Origin: a virus
Lineage: Duplodnaviria; Heunggongvirae; Uroviricota; Caudoviricetes
IMG/VR virus record: IMGVR_UViG_2740892445_000002
Direction: 5' to 3' (one strand)
DNA: 48,538 bases
Program-made: the position numbers and the translations under genes
Shown: piece after piece, positions 29,847 to 37,297 of the stretch
Layout: every line of letters starts with the position of its first letter
How positions within the stretch are numbered: position 1 is the stretch's first letter
The notes under the pieces: model-generated
Database searches by the model: none
Told to the model about the DNA's origin: nothing
Seen by the model: only the letters and a program-made list of their open reading frames with translations

Positions 29847-29851
29847 GTCCA

Positions 29852-29876
29852 TAAAAAAGCCCCTCCGGAGAGGGGC
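29852..29876 (-). terminator. intrinsic terminator after repeat unit 1
   Basis: Minus-strand GCCCCUC-UCCG-GAGGGGC followed by UUUUUUAU. Confidence 0.6.
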
Positions 29877-29898
29877 ATACTAGCTATATATCCATTTA

Positions 29899-30026
29899 TC
29901 ATTGGCTGCGTGGTGCCGGGTGCCTCCCGGTGAGCTCAGTCTGGTGTCACTGAGCCCGCACATTCTCGATCCAAGTTATCGTCGGAGATAATACCTGATA
30001 CACCAGACGCCCCTCCGCACAGGGGG
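29899..30026 (-). repeat. tRNA-like cloverleaf repeat unit 1 (candidate structured ncRNA)
   Basis: Conserved blocks GGTGCCGGGTGCCTCCCGGTG and CCCCTCCGCACAGGGGGATTCACCA; terminal stem CGTGGTG/CACCACG; variable interior. Confidence 0.5.
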
Positions 30027-30263
30027 ATTCACCACGCGCAGAGAAGGATACTGAACACTATTTTCTCCAGGCAATATGCAATAACATGAAGTGTGAGATG
30101 ACTTACAATTATAAAAAACAGCCTACAGAATACTCCTAAATAAAGCCATATCAAAATGAGTAACACAAAAAGGAACCAGGCAAAAATTTACGAGCAGGTA
30201 TTATCCAGCAACAGTTCAGACGCCATAACTTATTGCCGATAGCTACCATCAATAATTTCTTTC

Positions 30264-30289
30264 ATAAAAAAGCCCCTCTGAAGAGGGGC
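30264..30289 (-). terminator. intrinsic terminator after repeat unit 2
   Basis: Minus-strand GCCCCUC-UUCA-GAGGGGC followed by UUUUUUAU. Confidence 0.6.
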
Positions 30290-30316
30290 TGACATACGCA
30301 TTTGCTTTCATCATCA

Positions 30317-30439
30317 ATATGGCGCCGGGTGCCTCCCGGTGCTCCATAACTGATTAATATGGAACGCGGTTTCATTCAGTTGCATTCATGAATAACACTC
30401 TAATCAGTCCGCCCCGCCGCTTAGGGGGATTCGCCATAT
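30317..30439 (-). repeat. tRNA-like cloverleaf repeat unit 2 (candidate structured ncRNA)
   Basis: Same blocks with compensatory changes (GGCGCC... / ...GATTCGCCA); terminal stem ATATGGCG/CGCCATAT; interior closed by ACTGATTA/TAATCAGT. Confidence 0.5.
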
Positions 30440-30574
30440 AAATTGAAAGTACTGAACACATCTGTCACAAACAATATGCAATTGTATGAATTGTGAGATT
30501 ATTATCAATAACACAAAATTACAGCTCTAGTACATAAACAGCAGATTAAACAAGAACAACAAAAGTATTGAATT

Positions 30575-30697
30575 GCACGGTGCCGGGTGCCTCCCGGTGA
30601 ATTCTGCAATGACCAGACAGAATCCGCAACTTGCTACTAACGCTAATGCGACCAAGCCTCAGTCATTATGCCCCTCCGCACAGGGGGATTCACCATG
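30575..30697 (-). repeat. tRNA-like cloverleaf repeat unit 3 (candidate structured ncRNA)
   Basis: Same conserved blocks; terminal stem GCACGGTG/CACCATGC (one mismatch); interior closed by AATGAC/GTCATT. Confidence 0.5.
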
Positions 30698-30827
30698 CGC
30701 TAAAAAAATACAAAACGTCACGTCACTCTGACAATACGAAGCACCATAAAATGTGAGTTATTTATCAATTCTTAATTCTGGTTACAGGAATATTCCGAAT
30801 CAAATCTTTAAAAAAAGAAATTCAAAT

Positions 30828-30930
30828 GCATGGTGCCGGGTGCCTCCCGGTGAACAGACCGTCCGTGATACCAGTAGGCAACACAGGAAATTAATGGTAT
30901 CACCCCACCGCACAGGGGGATTCACCATGC
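30828..30930 (-). repeat. tRNA-like cloverleaf repeat unit 4 (candidate structured ncRNA)
   Basis: Same conserved blocks; terminal stem GCATGGTG/CACCATGC; interior closed by GTGATACCA/TGGTATCAC. Confidence 0.5.
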
Positions 30931-31320
30931 AGGCGTTTTCTTAGCAAACTAACTGCGCGCCCGGCAACTCCCAACCACATAAAACGTGGAGTTTGTAGCA
31001 TTTATGCACATAACTCACAGGGGTTATCTTAAAAAAAGCTGACCATGCTTCCCCGGCAACGCAATAACTTTATTCCCTGAAGTGGCATCCCCCGTATTGT
31101 CGGCAGGCTCAAAAAGGAGCCAGTCATCTGAGGATGACTGGAAAAAGGAAAGATAAAAAATTATTCATCATACAACCTTCGTTGCAGGGGAGAATCCTGC
31201 GGTGCAGCAACATACAAAAACATAAGCCAACTAACAATATGCAGGCATAGCATTTTCGGATTTTGTTATATGGCACGGTAACTGAATGCTTACCTGATAT
31301 ACAGTCCGGTATAAAGTTGC

Positions 31321-31582: not shown

Positions 31583-31660
31583 TGCTGGACCGTCACCGGG
31601 GACTCGAACCCCGCATTTTCAACATAAAAAGGTTGATGCTCTTTCCTGATGAGCTAGTGA
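31583..31660 (-). tRNA. tRNA-like gene with 8-nt anticodon loop CUUUUUAU (Lys-UUU-like; possible variant or pseudogene)
   Basis: Acceptor stem CCGTCAC/GTGACGG, D arm GCTC-ATCAGGAAA-GAGC, T arm CGGGG-TTCGAGT-CCCCG, encoded CCA; anticodon loop one nt too long. Confidence 0.55.
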
Positions 31661-31662
31661 CG

Positions 31663-31737
31663 GCATGGTTGCCTTGCTGGATTTGAACCAGCGACCTGGC
31701 GATTATGAGTCTCTCGCTCTCACCACTGAGCTAAAGG
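31663..31737 (-). tRNA. tRNA-like gene with CAU anticodon (Met/Ile2-like), imperfect acceptor and anticodon stems; possible pseudogene
   Basis: D arm GCTC-AGTGGTGA-GAGC, anticodon loop CTCATAA, T arm GCTGG-TTCAAAT-CCAGC, CCA; only 4 of 7 acceptor pairs form by my reading. Confidence 0.45.
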
Positions 31738-31780
31738 GCCGGGAACAGAATAATAATGGTGCGTAATTAATTCTGCAATC

Positions 31781-33412: not shown

Positions 33413-34234
33413 CTATCGCGTTACCCTCTTCAACTGCCACTCTGCCCATGCCTCTGCAATATCAAACCGGACCACCAGCGTGTCATAGAATTGCTTAACT
33501 GTTTTTTCCCATGAAGCGCGTGTTATCTGATTTGTCACCTCACATATGGCATCAAATGCCTCCGTTGAAGGTAATCTTTCATAGCCACGCCCACCACAAC
33601 GCTGACAGTTTCTGAAAACCGGCATACCTCGTTTTTCAGACTCTTCACGATGAATGGCAACACCGCGCCCACGGCAATCTTTACAGGCAGTGGAGACCTC
33701 CCCCTTTCCACCACACTCCGGACAGGCAACTTTTACCACCTCCCTGACTTTTTTCCATTCCTCCCAGTAAGACGGATACACGCCTTTTGTACACTTTGCC
33801 CATACTGGCGGCTTACCATCCGGATACTGAATCTTGTTTGTAAAAATCTCGCTTTCAATAAATTTTTTTCCGTGACAGCATGGGCACTGTTTTTTGCTCG
33901 CCGCGCTCCGGGCATAATCCTCAAACGCATACGAAGCCATAATGCGCATCACTACCGGTTTTATTTCTGCCGGAAGTTTTCTTAACGCTGCCACGCGATC
34001 ACACCGACTGAGAGCGTATTCTGCCAGCAGTTCTGTTGCCCGCTCCCTGTCATTCATACTGATGCCCATTTTCCCAAGGAACGCAGAAAACCCCATCTCA
34101 GCCCGATTCTGTGTCATGCCCTGCGCTGCCATCACATCAGTGATACTCAGCGCATCTTTTGACGTTGAGGCCGATGCATCCGTCAGACCCGGTGATTTTG
34201 GGGAATAGTATTTTGGTAAATCTTCCAGTTTCAT
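33413..34234 (-). CDS. Q: late-gene antitermination protein Q (zinc-finger Q family of lambdoid prophages)
   Basis: 273 aa, four CxxC motifs (CPCCHGKK, CPECGGKG, CKDCRGRG, CQRCGGRG); located directly upstream of pR'/tR'. Confidence 0.8.
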   Translation of the reverse strand: MKLEDLPKYYSPKSPGLTDASASTSKDALSITDVMAAQGMTQNRAEMGFSAFLGKMGISMNDRERATELLAEYALSRCDRVAALRKLPAEIKPVVMRIMASYAFEDYARSAASKKQCPCCHGKKFIESEIFTNKIQYPDGKPPVWAKCTKGVYPSYWEEWKKVREVVKVACPECGGKGEVSTACKDCRGRGVAIHREESEKRGMPVFRNCQRCGGRGYERLPSTEAFDAICEVTNQITRASWEKTVKQFYDTLVVRFDIAEAWAEWQLKRVTR

Positions 34235-34617: not shown

Positions 34618-35667
34618 TTACCCGAGCACGCCAGTCGCAAAGGCGTGATCAAGAAAACGAAAAATTAACTCAACCTGGGACCCGTACTTTTTCTCAAACT
34701 CCAGCGGGTCAGCATGAAGTTCGTTGTGGTGCTCCCGGCACAACGGTAGCGTGAAAATATCGTGGGATTTTGTCCCCATTCCGCCCTGACCATGACCAAT
34801 CAGGTGATGCGGATCGTCGGCTGGCTTACCACAACACACGCACGGCTGTGTCTTTACCCAGCGCGTGTATTTCTCATTTACCCAACGGCGACGTTTAGGC
34901 CGCTTCATGAACGATTCAGGAGACTCCGGATCAACGGCTATACTGACCACCGCTTTTTTCTGTGGTGGATTTTGTTGCTGGTGGACGTGAAGTGGCAGCG
35001 CAATATTTTTTGTGCGCTGCTTCAGTATGCTGGTGGCGGTCTGCGCTCCCGGAATGATGTCACTCTCACGATATACGGAGCGGATTTTTTCCACCGGTAA
35101 TCCCAGCGAACGACGCAATACAGACTCAGGAAGCGCATCAGCCACCTGATTGCAGACCGCCCACCAGGATAATTCAGCCAGCGATAATTCACGTTCCTGT
35201 GCGCCATTCATTGCATGCCGAATGACGTCAATCATCCAGGCAACCAGATTCTGTTGAGCAAGTTGCTCCAGTGAATCAGATGTCTGCTCCCGCAGGTGGT
35301 TGTCGCAGTGCCAGCACAACACCATCGCGCCGGTACCGTAACGGTGAATGACGGTTTCGCTGTGATGATAATCGCCGTGTGGCCACTGGCAGGATTTCAC
35401 GTGACGTAATAACCAGTCAGACAGTACACCAGCGCCACCCGCAGCACGGATCACCCGCTCATCGCTGAAAAATGGCAGTAATGATTTATCTTCCGCCAGC
35501 GGCTGGCGAACGGCAGGTACACCCCCAGACGGCAGAGCACGCATGCTTTTCGGTTCCGGCTCCACCAGCACCCTGCCGCAATGAAAAACAGGCAGTGATT
35601 CGCGTCCGGGCTTAAGGACCACCAGGCCAAGTTCCGGCACCAGAACAGGTCGAAGTAATACCCGCAC
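34618..35667 (-). CDS. DUF968-type prophage protein with C-terminal HNH-like zinc motif (YdfU-like)
   Basis: 349 aa; C-terminal ...CVCCGKPADDPHHLIGHG...CREHHNELH... Confidence 0.65.
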   Translation of the reverse strand: MRVLLRPVLVPELGLVVLKPGRESLPVFHCGRVLVEPEPKSMRALPSGGVPAVRQPLAEDKSLLPFFSDERVIRAAGGAGVLSDWLLRHVKSCQWPHGDYHHSETVIHRYGTGAMVLCWHCDNHLREQTSDSLEQLAQQNLVAWMIDVIRHAMNGAQERELSLAELSWWAVCNQVADALPESVLRRSLGLPVEKIRSVYRESDIIPGAQTATSILKQRTKNIALPLHVHQQQNPPQKKAVVSIAVDPESPESFMKRPKRRRWVNEKYTRWVKTQPCVCCGKPADDPHHLIGHGQGGMGTKSHDIFTLPLCREHHNELHADPLEFEKKYGSQVELIFRFLDHAFATGVLG

Positions 35668-35668
35668 G

Positions 35669-35959
35669 TTACCTCCAGATACGTTGCTGGAATGTGCGGG
35701 ACGGACGCGGTGGATGTTCGGAATAAGGGAGCCTGACAGAGATTATCCAGTGACGATAATCGAGGCTGATGGCTTTCTTAACCTCGTATCCGCGCCTGCG
35801 GTAACACTGAATCAGCCATTCGGCCTGTTCTTCAGTGCATGGGGGATGCTGGTACCAGTCGGTTTTAAATACGTGCGAATGCCGCCCCCGCTTAATGGCC
35901 GGGACGGCTTCAGAATTGTGGGATTTTATACGTTGCGCCATCGGGTTCTCCGGTGACAC
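35669..35959 (-). CDS. hypothetical protein
   Basis: 96 aa ORF, start overlaps upstream gene stop; no family recognised. Confidence 0.4.
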   Translation of the reverse strand: MSPENPMAQRIKSHNSEAVPAIKRGRHSHVFKTDWYQHPPCTEEQAEWLIQCYRRRGYEVKKAISLDYRHWIISVRLPYSEHPPRPSRTFQQRIWR

Positions 35960-36107
35960 AGCAGGTGCCAGTTGTTCAGGCTGGCGTGCGAATTGTAAAC
36001 CAGAATGTCAAGAAAAAACAAAACCCGCAGAAGCGGGTTAAGTGCGGGTGCGTTGAGGATGCCTGACACATCAGAGGTGGCGAGGGATTTCTCCCTCGCC
36101 GGGTCTC

Positions 36108-36263
36108 TTACTTCTCAGATTCGTAAGCTGTGAAGACAGCGACCTCCGTCTGGCCGGTTCGGATTCGTACCTCGCAGAGGTCTTTCCTCGTTACCAGTAC
36201 CGTTACAACGACGGTAATACAGATGACGATCAGGGCGATTAGCATCGCCTTTTGCTGCTTCAT
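36108..36263 (-). CDS. hokD: Hok-family type I toxin (HokD/RelF-like)
   Basis: 51 aa MKQQKAMLIALIVICITVVVTVLVTRKDLCEVRIRTGQTEVAVFTAYESEK, near-identical to my recollection of HokD. Confidence 0.9.
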   Translation of the reverse strand: MKQQKAMLIALIVICITVVVTVLVTRKDLCEVRIRTGQTEVAVFTAYESEK

Positions 36264-36440
36264 AGCCTGCTGCTCCTTGCCTTTCGGCGCGTAAGAGGCT
36301 AATCTAAGTGTGCAAGTCATAGATATGGCCTCAGATTAATGTTAAGCGTCCTGCAAGACGCATAATGTTAACTGGGGCTTTTCTCTGTCTGCCTTACGTC
36401 GGCATGCCCGAGGCAGACAGCCTCAAGCACCCGCAGCAAT
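36264..36440. promoter_or_regulatory. hok mRNA leader / mok start / antisense Sok region
   Basis: Minus-strand leader GGGUGCUUGAGGCUGUCUGCCUC... resembles hok mRNA 5' end; in-frame upstream start MTCTLRL... Confidence 0.45.
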
Positions 36441-36513
36441 TCTACTTAACTCTCGCTTTACCGCAAACCGTTTTACCCGATATGGGAATGCCCATATCGC
36501 AATGAATTCAGTT

Positions 36514-36612
36514 TCACATCCGATCCATCAAAAACACAACCAGGCAGTAAACGCCCACAACAGAAATAACGGCCAGCGCGCCTTCCATTGCCAGTGAAAT
36601 ATCATCCGACAT
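36514..36612 (-). CDS. small hydrophobic peptide (32 aa)
   Basis: MSDDISLAMEGALAVISVVGVYCLVVFLMDRM behind AAGGAGGG Shine-Dalgarno; below track cutoff, found by hand. Confidence 0.35.
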   Translation of the reverse strand: MSDDISLAMEGALAVISVVGVYCLVVFLMDRM

Positions 36613-36647
36613 ATTCCCTCCTTTGGTGTTAATCCCGGCGAACGTTT

Positions 36648-36731
36648 TTACCCCCACCGACAAATAACATATACTAAAAAAGCGATAGCCATAGCAACGC
36701 CTGTAATTGCAAATGCTTCAGGCCAGTTCAT
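36648..36731 (-). CDS. small hydrophobic peptide (27 aa)
   Basis: MNWPEAFAITGVAMAIAFLVYVICRWG; ATG overlaps stop of upstream 189-aa gene (ATGA). Confidence 0.3.
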   Translation of the reverse strand: MNWPEAFAITGVAMAIAFLVYVICRWG

Positions 36732-37297
36732 TGGCGCACTTTCTGCGGCGGTTCAGGTAGAAGCATCCGATTGATTACATCGCATTCAGGGATGCTGATA
36801 TCATCACCAAGCCATCCTTGACCTTCAGACCAGCATTGCACGTAATACCCGTATTCTGTGTTCACTACGCACCACTGCCCGTCATCCGGCATTCGCTCAC
36901 TACAGCTTATCCAACCATCCGGAGTTACCGGATGGTTGGTTGACGTTTCCGAGATTTCCCGAAAATTATTGGTTGACGAACCCTTATGTTCCCGAAAGTT
37001 TCCAGCCTGAAGCATGGCGGCGCGGTGACACCAGATAATCCAGCCAAGCGCCATATCCCATGCCATGTATTCTCTATCGCCATTTTTTGCTCTGCGGCGA
37101 TCTACAGATTCTCCGAAACGCTTCTCCATAAATAATTCATAGGCTGCTCGTTCATCCGATACTGCTGCCAGTGATGCCAGTGCAATCCGTGCCAGCTCTT
37201 CCGCTTCTTCTGCTGGAAGCACAACGTTGCTACCAGGTCCGTATGTTTCGCGCCACTGCTTGATTGTCAGTAGTCGCTCTTTGGTAATAGTGATCAT
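36728..37297 (-). CDS. DUF551-like prophage protein
   Basis: 189 aa; C-terminal Trp/Cys-rich WISCSERMPDDGQWCVVNTEYGYYVQCW... Confidence 0.55.
   Translation of the reverse strand: MITITKERLLTIKQWRETYGPGSNVVLPAEEAEELARIALASLAAVSDERAAYELFMEKRFGESVDRRRAKNGDREYMAWDMALGWIIWCHRAAMLQAGNFREHKGSSTNNFREISETSTNHPVTPDGWISCSERMPDDGQWCVVNTEYGYYVQCWSEGQGWLGDDISIPECDVINRMLLPEPPQKVRQ

What the first reader, a model, noticed from the sequence alone, without database searches (positions are those of the whole stretch)
36108..36440. HokD-like type I toxin with conserved mRNA leader
The 51-aa Hok protein is near-identical to my recollection of HokD (RelF) of Qin, and the leader resembles the hok mRNA 5' region, implying an antisense Sok partner on the plus strand. 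Unlike Qin, there is no relBE pair upstream; two small peptide ORFs sit there instead.
Basis: partly seen in the sequence, partly recalled or inferred. Interest (0 to 1): 0.45.

Follow-up and report, generated by a model that had tools for sequence, protein, structure and literature searches.

The report
Intact prophage hok/mok/sok toxin–antitoxin locus
This is an ordinary, complete copy of the well-known hok/sok "host-killing" toxin–antisense-RNA module carried by a lambda-like prophage; near-identical copies sit in hundreds of E. coli genomes, and a 90%-identical one (hokW/sokW) has been tested experimentally.

Summary
On the minus strand there is a 51-aa Hok toxin gene (36108-36263; Pfam HOK_GEF 82 bits). 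An in-frame 70-aa mok ORF begins at 36320. The leader matches Rfam RF01794 over its full length (114.8 bits against a cut-off of 59).

It contains every regulatory element of the plasmid R1 model:
- hok promoter and 5' tac element
- metastable hairpin
- ucb, the Sok-target hairpin, mok SD and dcb
- hok SD, a 3' stem-loop, fbi and a terminator

A 71-nt antisense Sok lies on the plus strand (36312-36382). Its promoter, TTGCCT-17-TAATCT, is the commonest form among 49 homologues.

Folding reproduces the closed structure (tac/fbi, ucb/SD) and the open structure (tac/ucb, SD/dcb). Both pairings are conserved across genera; compensatory changes support the closed helices.

- the exact Hok and Mok proteins occur on at least 999 public contigs each
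- 660 complete E. coli genomes carry most of this 781-nt stretch, including the two small upstream ORFs
- hokW/sokW of Stx phage Sp5 (Hok 46/51 identical) is experimentally characterised

K-12 hokD, cut short by relBE, is the derived form. Interest is low.

The parts
36439..36467 (-). hok promoter: -35 TTTGCG (36467-36462), 17-nt spacer, -10 TAGAAT (36444-36439); transcription start about 36432
   Evidence: Pattern positions. The sequence is identical to that upstream of hokW in VT2-Sakai. The generic promoter scan did not call it because the -35 matches only 3 of 6. The assignment rests on position relative to the conserved mRNA 5' end, where 40+ homologues start aligning.
36013..36432 (-). 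full-length hok mRNA, about 420 nt, from tac to the intrinsic terminator
   Evidence: Most of the homologous loci align from mRNA position 1 or 2 (nhmmer). The Rfam sok model covers 36258-36432. The terminator was found.
36420..36432 (-). tac (translational activator) element GGGUGCUUGAGGC at the mRNA 5' end
   Evidence: It pairs with fbi in the minimum-energy fold of the full-length mRNA. It pairs with ucb in folds of the 5' fragments. It is nearly invariant in the 49-sequence alignment.
36404..36414 (-). 3' arm of the metastable hairpin that sequesters tac in the nascent transcript
   Evidence: In folds of nt 1-30 and 1-50, positions 3-13 pair with 19-29, at -18.8 kcal/mol for nt 1-30.
36374..36382 (-). 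ucb, the anti-SD box AAAAGCCCC
   Evidence: It pairs with the mok SD in the full-length fold and with tac in the 5' fragments. Across 49 sequences the tac/ucb cells are 98% paired.
36335..36372 (-). Sok-target (sokT) hairpin of the hok mRNA, complementary to the body of Sok
   Evidence: folds. Within the Rfam match it carries a 16-nt insertion. That insertion is shared by all HokD/HokW-clade loci (alignment columns 88-106).
36328..36332 (-). mok Shine-Dalgarno sequence GAGGC
   Evidence: It lies 7 nt upstream of the mok AUG. It pairs with ucb in the closed fold and with dcb in the open fold. The SD/dcb cells are 97% paired.
36108..36320 (-). mok ORF, 70 aa, in frame with hok and sharing its stop codon
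   Evidence: The same in-frame arrangement is annotated for mokW. The exact 70-aa sequence is on at least 999 contigs.
36295..36299 (-). dcb (downstream complementary box) GCCUC
   Evidence: It pairs with the mok SD in folds of nt 1-140 and 1-175. It is conserved across the alignment.
36273..36278 (-). hok Shine-Dalgarno sequence AAGGAG
   Evidence: Sequence read directly. It is nearly invariant in alignment A1.
36108..36263 (-). hok toxin CDS, 51 aa plus stop
   Evidence: Pfam HOK_GEF 82.4 bits. PHROG 251 at 111.6 bits. The exact sequence is on at least 999 contigs.
36079..36100 (-). 3' UTR stem-loop GGCGAGGGAGAAAUCCCUCGCC, the presumed protective 3' end of the processed (truncated) mRNA
   Evidence: fold. 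Compensatory changes occur across homologues (helices 6 and 7). Its role is inferred from R1 (PMC9841398).
36046..36065 (-). fbi (fold-back inhibition) element CAGGCAUCCUCAACGCACCC
   Evidence: In the minimum-energy fold it pairs with nt 1-12, with a 1-nt bulge. The duplex energy is -30.6 kcal/mol against -15.3 +/- 3.1 for 1000 shuffles, none of which reached it. Pair 4 covaries as U-A in 29 sequences and C-G in 15.
36013..36039 (-). intrinsic terminator of hok mRNA
   Evidence: 7-bp stem with 5 G-C pairs, followed by a U-tract.
36277..36305 (+). Sok promoter: -35 TTGCCT (36277-36282), 17-nt spacer, -10 TAATCT (36300-36305), lying inside the mok/hok-SD region
   Evidence: The positions match the R1-type promoter (TTGCGC/TATCCT) and the sokW promoter (TTGCCT/TAACCT). 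TTGCCT + TAATCT is the commonest combination among the 49 homologues. The generic scan did not call it because the -10 matches only 3 of 6.
36312..36382 (+). Sok antisense RNA, about 71 nt: a 15-17-nt single-stranded 5' tail overlapping the mok start, a long hairpin and a U-tail
   Evidence: The fold gives -27.6 kcal/mol. It is collinear with the annotated 71-nt sokW. The ends are inferred by homology and have not been mapped.

Best explanation
This is a sequence-intact hok/mok/sok type I toxin-antitoxin module of the HokD/HokW clade. It sits in the nin region of a lambdoid prophage, between a DUF551 gene and the DUF968-RusA-Q genes.

Proposed mechanism, following the plasmid R1 model:
1. A weak constitutive promoter makes a stable hok mRNA of about 420 nt.
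2. During transcription, a 5' metastable hairpin hides the tac element.
3. In the finished transcript, the 3' fbi element pairs with tac over 12-18 bp, and ucb pairs with the mok SD. In this closed form the RNA can neither be translated nor bind Sok.
4. Slow 3' trimming back to the 36079-36100 stem-loop removes fbi.
5. tac then pairs with ucb, the mok SD pairs with dcb, and the Sok-target hairpin forms.
6. If the unstable 71-nt Sok RNA is present, it pairs with the mok start region and RNase III destroys the duplex.
7. If Sok is lost, mok is translated, hok is translated by coupling, and the 51-aa peptide damages the inner membrane.

What is shown here: every sequence element, the predicted alternative pairings, and their conservation across genera, with compensatory changes in the closed helices. 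What is inferred from R1 and hokW/sokW: RNA expression, 3' processing, toxicity and Sok's antitoxin action.

The likely biological role follows hokW/sokW: Hok is released when Sok disappears on prophage induction, which advances lysis. Stabilisation of the prophage is a possible additional or alternative role.
For: Toxin and leader:
- Pfam HOK_GEF 82 bits and PHROG 251 'MokW-like host killing' 111.6 bits.
- Full-length Rfam RF01794 match at 114.8 bits.

Folding:
- The minimum-energy fold of the full-length mRNA gives tac/fbi and ucb/SD-mok pairing.
- Folds of 5' fragments give the metastable hairpin, tac/ucb, the sokT hairpin and SD-mok/dcb.
- The tac-fbi duplex is -30.6 kcal/mol, reached by 0 of 1000 shuffles.

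Comparison across 49 loci (Escherichia, Shigella, Kluyvera, Citrobacter, Photorhabdus, Pantoea, Erwinia, an R1-type plasmid):
- 90% of cells are paired for the closed structure and 92% for the open one, against 35-51% for slid controls.
- Compensatory changes occur in tac/fbi and in the stem-loops.
- The Sok promoter hexamers equal the commonest family variant.
- Sok is collinear with annotated sokW and 50/54 identical in the hairpin.

[quoted passage not shown] It promotes lysis and phage release after mitomycin C (PMC8621323).

Source of the mechanism: the R1 model as summarised in PMC9841398.
Against: - Nothing was measured for this locus.
- Both promoters match the sigma-70 consensus poorly, and the generic scan missed them.
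- For the truncated mRNA (nt 1-358) the predicted minimum-energy fold is not the open conformer, which lies 5.5 kcal/mol above it. The switch is therefore supported by conservation and by local folding, not by global thermodynamics.
- hokW lies at a different place in Sp5, near the right end, so its role may not transfer to this locus.
Confidence: 0.85

Rival explanations
1. The locus is an inactive relic. It looks complete, but like the K-12 chromosomal hok loci it no longer kills or regulates, because of weak promoters or subtle point mutations.
For: [quoted passage not shown] Both promoters here are poor consensus matches. The prophage could be defective.
Against: No IS insertion, frameshift, or loss of any element was found. 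The exact Hok and Mok sequences are kept on at least 999 contigs each. The structural elements match those retained across genera. The 90%-identical hokW/sokW is active. Of 45 diverse Hok homologues tested in the cited preprint, 42 were toxic.
Confidence: 0.1
2. The module is active, but its main role is addiction: stabilising the prophage by killing cells that lose or excise it. It would not be a helper of lysis.
For: This is the classical function of R1 hok/sok, inferred from the R1 model summarised in PMC9841398. The VT2-Sakai annotation calls hokW 'prophage maintenance'. hok genes are about four-fold enriched in prophages.
Against: In Sp5, deleting hokW-sokW had no effect on normal growth. 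The measured effects were on lysis timing and phage yield after induction. Prophage loss by segregation is rare for an integrated element. This rival and the best explanation are not mutually exclusive.
Confidence: 0.3
3. The module acts mainly as an abortive-infection defence. Shut-off of host transcription by a superinfecting lytic phage would deplete Sok and release Hok.
For: From my own knowledge, not checked here: R1 hok/sok has been reported to reduce T4 propagation (Pecota and Wood 1996). The unstable-antitoxin logic fits such a role.
Against: [quoted passage not shown] No defence neighbours appear in the 4 kb around the locus. Nothing was tested here.
Confidence: 0.1

Closest known systems
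hokW-mokW-sokW of Stx2 phage Sp5 / VT2-Sakai (933W L0137, L0144, L0138)
   Same: 51-aa Hok, 46/51 identical. mok is 70 aa and in frame. The hok promoter sequence is identical. The same tac, ucb, SD, dcb and fbi elements are present. Sok is 71 nt with a 50/54-identical hairpin, and the clade-specific extended sokT hairpin is shared. Both sit on a lambdoid prophage.
   Different: The Sok 5' tail is only 8/17 identical, so cross-recognition may be limited. The Sok -10 box is TAATCT here and TAACCT in sokW. hokW lies near the right end of Sp5, next to tail-fibre-side morons; this copy lies in the nin region. hokW lacks the downstream terminator sequence found here.
hokD (relF) of the Qin cryptic prophage, E. 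coli K-12
   Same: Hok is 46/51 identical. The 3' UTR, fbi and terminator are the same. The downstream neighbourhood is the same: a small ORF, the DUF968 protein YdfU, then a Q-like gene.
   Different: In K-12, similarity starts only at mRNA position 109. tac, ucb, the sokT hairpin, the mok SD and the Sok promoter are replaced by relBE. The window holds the complete form of the locus.
hok/sok (parB) of plasmid R1, the family paradigm
   Same: All named elements occur in the same order, with the same closed and open pairing schemes and the same placement of the Sok promoter.
   Different: Hok is only 24/52 identical. The first leader hairpin is longer in the R1 type (alignment columns 30-57), while the sokT hairpin is about 20 nt longer here. 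The replicon is a plasmid rather than a prophage. From memory, mok is out of frame in canonical R1, whereas it is in frame here and in the R1-type copy I fetched.
Chromosomal hokA/B/C/E-type loci of Escherichia, and Photorhabdus/Pantoea hok loci
   Same: The mRNA architecture is shared, and these loci provide the covariation that supports the structure.
   Different: Their sokT hairpin is shorter, their Hok is 49-50 aa, and they are mostly not in a prophage nin region.

Membership tests
[quoted passage not shown] | Small Hok/Gef-type membrane toxin of about 50 aa | tested here: met
   Pfam PF01848 at 82.4 bits against a cut-off of 22. PHROG 251 at 111.6 bits.
[quoted passage not shown] | An overlapping mok reading frame with its own SD, starting upstream of hok and reading through the hok start | tested here: met
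   70-aa ORF at 36108-36320, with SD GAGGC 7 nt upstream.
[quoted passage not shown] | Conserved structured 5' leader (Rfam RF01794) scoring above the gathering threshold | tested here: met
   114.8 bits against 59, covering model positions 1-157.
[quoted passage not shown] | Long-range tac (5' end) to fbi (3' end) pairing that closes the full-length mRNA | tested here: met
   Present in the minimum-energy fold. The duplex is -30.6 kcal/mol, reached by 0 of 1000 shuffles. It is conserved, with U-A to C-G covariation.
[quoted passage not shown] | Alternative pairings: ucb/SD-mok (closed) versus tac/ucb plus SD-mok/dcb (open), and a 5' metastable hairpin | tested here: met
   All are seen in folds of the full-length RNA and its 5' fragments, with 92-98% of cells paired across 49 loci. 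Caveat: the open form is not the global minimum-energy fold of the truncated RNA.
[quoted passage not shown] | A cis-encoded antisense Sok gene (promoter, 5' tail, terminator hairpin) opposite the mok start region | tested here: met
   TTGCCT-17-TAATCT promoter and a 71-nt hairpin RNA, collinear with sokW and with R1 Sok. This is sequence-level evidence only.
[quoted passage not shown] | Sok is expressed and unstable, hok mRNA is stable and 3'-processed, Hok is toxic, and Sok neutralises it | not testable with these tools
   This needs northern blots, rifampicin chase and toxicity assays. It has been shown for hokW/sokW and for R1.
HokD as named by RefSeq | Identity to K-12 HokD high enough for the RefSeq name | tested here: inconclusive
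   46/51 identical to K-12 HokD. RefSeq names this exact protein 'Hok/Gef family protein' but names 94%-identical loci 'HokD'. No NCBIfam model passes its cut-off: the Hok subfamily model scores 51.2 against 73.

The most novel reading that the evidence does not exclude
The locus lies in the nin region and points the same way as the early rightward operon (O/P, nin, Q). Read-through transcription from pR on induction could therefore act as a built-in induction sensor. It would run head-on into the Sok promoter and silence it. It would also produce 5'-extended hok RNAs. Hok release would then be coupled mechanically to prophage induction, which would explain the rapid loss of Sok RNA reported for hokW/sokW. 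The highly variable Sok 5' tail (8/17 identical to SokW, against 50/54 in the hairpin) would keep co-resident prophage copies from cross-reacting.
Probability: 0.15. Interest if true: 0.4.

Novelty: already known. Interest (0 to 1): 0.1.

Why it matters
It matters little beyond correct annotation. The window carries the complete form of the locus that survives only as a truncated, relBE-fused hokD in E. coli K-12. That makes it a convenient reference for annotating mok, Sok, tac and fbi, which genome annotations usually omit; RefSeq marks only the hok CDS here. If the module is active, it probably tunes lysis timing or prophage retention in Shiga-toxin-phage-like prophages, as hokW/sokW does.

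Tried and rejected
- The generic sigma-70 scan called neither the hok promoter nor the Sok promoter. Both assignments rest on positional homology.
- The global minimum-energy fold of the 3'-truncated mRNA did not give the open conformer, which lies 5.5 kcal/mol above it. For comparison, the open form of the full-length RNA lies 13.6 kcal/mol above the closed form. I do not claim that thermodynamics alone predicts the switch.
- The plus-strand Rfam 'sok' hit at 36374-36504 (20.6 bits, E = 0.18) reflects the palindromic first hairpin and is not a second locus.
- The weak isrK hit (29.3 bits against 50) on the hok 3' UTR is below threshold, and I do not treat it as membership. A published origin for IsrK, from an ASH-domain gene, differs from this.
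- The ceN48 and CsrC hits are chance matches.
- NCBIfam has no model that passes its cut-off for this Hok.
- Pfam, PHROGs and NCBIfam give nothing significant for the two small upstream ORFs.
- No second hok/sok copy is present in the window.
- MAFFT split the last C of fbi in the Escherichia rows, so pair 1 is under-counted.

Full report
**1. What is there**

On the minus strand, 36108-36263 encodes a 51-aa peptide, MKQQKAMLIALIVICITVVVTVLVTRKDLCEVRIRTGQTEVAVFTAYESEK. It matches Pfam HOK_GEF at E = 1.6e-23 and 82.4 bits against a cut-off of 22. It also matches PHROG 251 'MokW-like host killing' at 111.6 bits.

It is 46/51 identical to K-12 HokD, 46/51 to HokW of phage VT2-Sakai, and 24/52 to R1 Hok. 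A 70-aa ORF starting at 36320 reads in frame into hok. This is mok.

The 175 nt from 36432 down to the start of hok match Rfam RF01794 over the whole model, at 114.8 bits against a gathering score of 59 and E = 1.7e-26. The model is named 'sok' but is written in the hok-mRNA sense, so a minus-strand match is what a hok leader should give.

**2. Anatomy**

Positions come from pattern searches and from folding with ViennaRNA.

| Element | Window coordinates | Strand |
|---|---|---|
| hok promoter: TTTGCG, 17 nt, TAGAAT | 36467-36439 | - |
| mRNA 5' end | about 36432 | - |
| tac, GGGUGCUUGAGGC | 36432-36420 | - |
| Partner arm of the nascent-chain metastable hairpin | 36414-36404 | - |
| ucb, AAAAGCCCC | 36382-36374 | - |
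| Sok-target (sokT) hairpin | 36372-36335 | - |
| mok SD, GAGGC | 36332-36328 | - |
| mok AUG | 36320 | - |
| dcb, GCCUC | 36299-36295 | - |
| hok SD, AAGGAG | 36278-36273 | - |
| hok AUG | 36263 | - |
| hok stop | 36110-36108 | - |
| 3' stem-loop | 36100-36079 | - |
| fbi, CAGGCAUCCUCAACGCACCC | 36065-36046 | - |
| Intrinsic terminator | 36039-36013 | - |
| Sok promoter: TTGCCT (36277-36282), 17 nt, TAATCT (36300-36305) | 36277-36305 | + |
| Sok RNA, 71 nt | about 36312-36382 | + |

Sok has a 15-17-nt single-stranded 5' tail, a long hairpin (-27.6 kcal/mol) and a GGGGCUUUU 3' end. It is collinear with the misc_RNA 'sokW' annotated in AP000422.

**3. Do the RNA switches exist here?**

The minimum-energy fold of the 417-nt full-length RNA pairs nt 1-12 with nt 375-387 (tac/fbi, with one bulge). 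In the same fold the mok SD pairs with ucb. This is the closed, inert form described for R1 (PMC9841398).

The 5'-3' duplex is -30.6 kcal/mol. Shuffled 3' segments gave -15.3 +/- 3.1 kcal/mol, and none of 1000 reached the observed value.

Folds of nascent pieces show two further states:
- In nt 1-30 and 1-50, a 5' hairpin sequesters tac. This is the metastable structure.
- From nt 1-62 onward, the open form appears: tac/ucb, the sokT hairpin and SD-mok/dcb.

One caveat applies. For the whole 3'-truncated RNA (nt 1-358) the open form is 5.5 kcal/mol above the predicted minimum. For the full-length RNA it is 13.6 kcal/mol above the closed form. Removing fbi therefore lowers the barrier, but global thermodynamics alone does not predict the switch.

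**4. Comparative support**

A scan of one genome per species returned 58 related loci. nhmmer aligned most of them from mRNA position 1 or 2, so the 5' boundary of similarity coincides with the proposed transcription start.

I built a 49-sequence alignment from Escherichia, Shigella, Kluyvera, Citrobacter, Pseudocitrobacter, Photorhabdus, Pantoea, Erwinia and an R1-type plasmid. The pairing statistics are below.

| Structure | Cells paired | Slid controls | Pairs changed on both sides | Shuffles reaching the covariation score |
|---|---|---|---|---|
| Closed | 90.0% | 41-51% | 14 | 0 of 500 |
| Open | 92.0% | 35-51% | 8 | 0 of 500 |

(The closed structure is and the open structure.)

Tac/fbi pair 4 is U-A in 29 sequences and C-G in 15. 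In the open structure, tac/ucb and SD/dcb are 97-98% paired but nearly invariant, so they say little either way.

The window's Sok promoter hexamers, TTGCCT and TAATCT, are the commonest combination in the set. In-frame mok is also the commonest state.

**5. How common, and what is known**

The 781-nt stretch 35960-36740 has matches in 4733 of 5426 complete E. coli genomes. In 660 genomes a match covers at least 80% of it, including the two small upstream ORFs. The best match is 99.4% identical (E. coli UC4224), where RefSeq annotates only 'Hok/Gef family protein'.

The exact Hok and Mok sequences are each on at least 999 public contigs. Phage records annotate homologues as mokW, hokW, sokW, 'host killer protein' or 'HokD toxin'. 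P1-like plasmids also carry relatives.

hokW-sokW of Sp5 has been characterised experimentally (PMC8621323):
- HokW is toxic.
- sokW expressed from its own promoter neutralises it, with partial dependence on RNase III and Hfq.
- After mitomycin C, sokW RNA vanishes, HokW appears in the inner membrane, growth retardation starts about 40 minutes earlier, and twice as many phage are released.

A recent survey finds hok about four-fold enriched in prophages.

**6. Relation to K-12 hokD**

In Qin the gene order is ydfU (DUF968), rem, hokD, relE, relB. The window has the same downstream side: a DUF968 protein of 349 aa at 34618-35667 and a small ORF at 35669-35959. It also has the same hok 3' UTR, fbi and terminator.

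K-12 similarity begins only at mRNA position 109. The tac, ucb, sokT and mok SD elements and the Sok promoter are absent there. The window therefore shows the complete locus, and K-12 hokD is the truncated derivative.

**7. Context**

The window is a lambdoid prophage read in reverse. From right to left it holds:
- an int-like ORF at the right end
- the replication and nin genes
- hok/sok
- DUF968/HNH, RusA and Q (33413-34234)
- a methyltransferase, two tRNA genes and four STnc100 copies
- a 678-aa PHROG 143 protein
- the lysis and morphogenesis genes

Gene identities outside 27.7-38 kb are inferred from ORF order and size only.

hok points the same way as its neighbours, which is the direction of early rightward transcription.

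**8. Verdict**

This is a sequence-intact, ordinary member of the hok/mok/sok family. Its mechanism can be transferred from R1 and hokW/sokW with high confidence at the sequence level. Expression, processing and toxicity remain untested for this copy.

Rival readings:
- It is an inactive relic. This is unlikely, because all elements are intact and the sequence is widely conserved.
- Its role is mainly prophage addiction.
- Its role is mainly abortive-infection defence.

Novelty: already known. Interest: low.

Noticed in passing
window 36648-36731 (-): A 27-aa hydrophobic ORF, MNWPEAFAITGVAMAIAFLVYVICRWG. Its ATG overlaps the stop of the upstream DUF551 gene (ATGA), which suggests translational coupling. 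Protein-level homologues exist in other prophages, for example MTWPEAFTTVGIAMAVALVVYSICRWG in L010. The copy upstream of hokW in VT2-Sakai is frameshifted. It is unannotated in RefSeq and has no Pfam, PHROG or NCBIfam hit.
   Followed up: partly
window 36514-36612 (-): A 32-aa hydrophobic ORF with a GGAGG SD, MSDDISLAMEGALAVISVVGVYCLVVFLMDRM, immediately upstream of the hok promoter. A 34-aa form is annotated as a hypothetical protein on at least 997 contigs. A diverged homologue...ALAITAVMAIYCLAIVLMDRLSD, lies upstream of hok in E. ruysiae (L012). It is probably a real small membrane protein of unknown function.
   Followed up: partly
window 29847-30960 (-): Four tandem copies of the prophage sRNA STnc100 (RF02076; 77-133 bits against a gathering score of 47). 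They lie between the tRNA genes and a 678-aa PHROG 143 protein, which from memory is where Stx phages carry stx. No stx-sized ORF is apparent.
   Followed up: no
window 31586-31741 (-): Two phage tRNA genes lie downstream of the Q and methyltransferase genes. One is tRNA-Met (CAT). For the other, ARAGORN reports an undetermined type with a four-base 'tttt' anticodon, while Rfam scores it as a normal tRNA.
   Followed up: no
window 36123-36125 (-), Hok codon 47: Tyr47 is encoded by UAC followed by G, giving a UACG motif that is nearly invariant across homologues. A preprint introduction reports TadA A-to-I recoding of the matching Tyr to Cys in hokC, hokD and hokE, and of codon 29 in hokB. This Hok has Cys15 and Cys30 but no C-terminal Cys, so editing could be needed for full toxicity. 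The local hairpin prediction is weak, at -3.5 kcal/mol.
   Followed up: partly
window 36312-36328 (+), Sok 5' tail / mok start: Within the HokD/HokW clade, the most variable parts of the mRNA are the first hairpin loop (nt 31-40) and nt 111-130, which is the mok start and the Sok 5' tail. The Sok tail is 8/17 identical to SokW, whereas the hairpin is 50/54 identical. This pattern would be expected if co-resident copies diverge in antisense recognition.
   Followed up: partly
window 36018-36099 (-): The hok 3' UTR (stem-loop, fbi, terminator) gives a sub-threshold match to Salmonella Gifsy-1 IsrK (RF01394; 29.3 bits against a gathering score of 50; E = 0.0016). From memory, IsrK also lies upstream of a prophage antiterminator region. 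The resemblance may be only that of a hairpin followed by a terminator.
   Followed up: partly
window 36335-36372 (-); alignment A1 columns 88-106: HokD/HokW-clade loci carry an extension of about 20 nt in the sokT/Sok hairpin (…UAUGCGUCUUGCAGGACGC…). It is absent from hokA/C-type, Photorhabdus, Pantoea and R1-type loci, and it appears as a 16-nt insertion in the Rfam alignment.
   Followed up: partly
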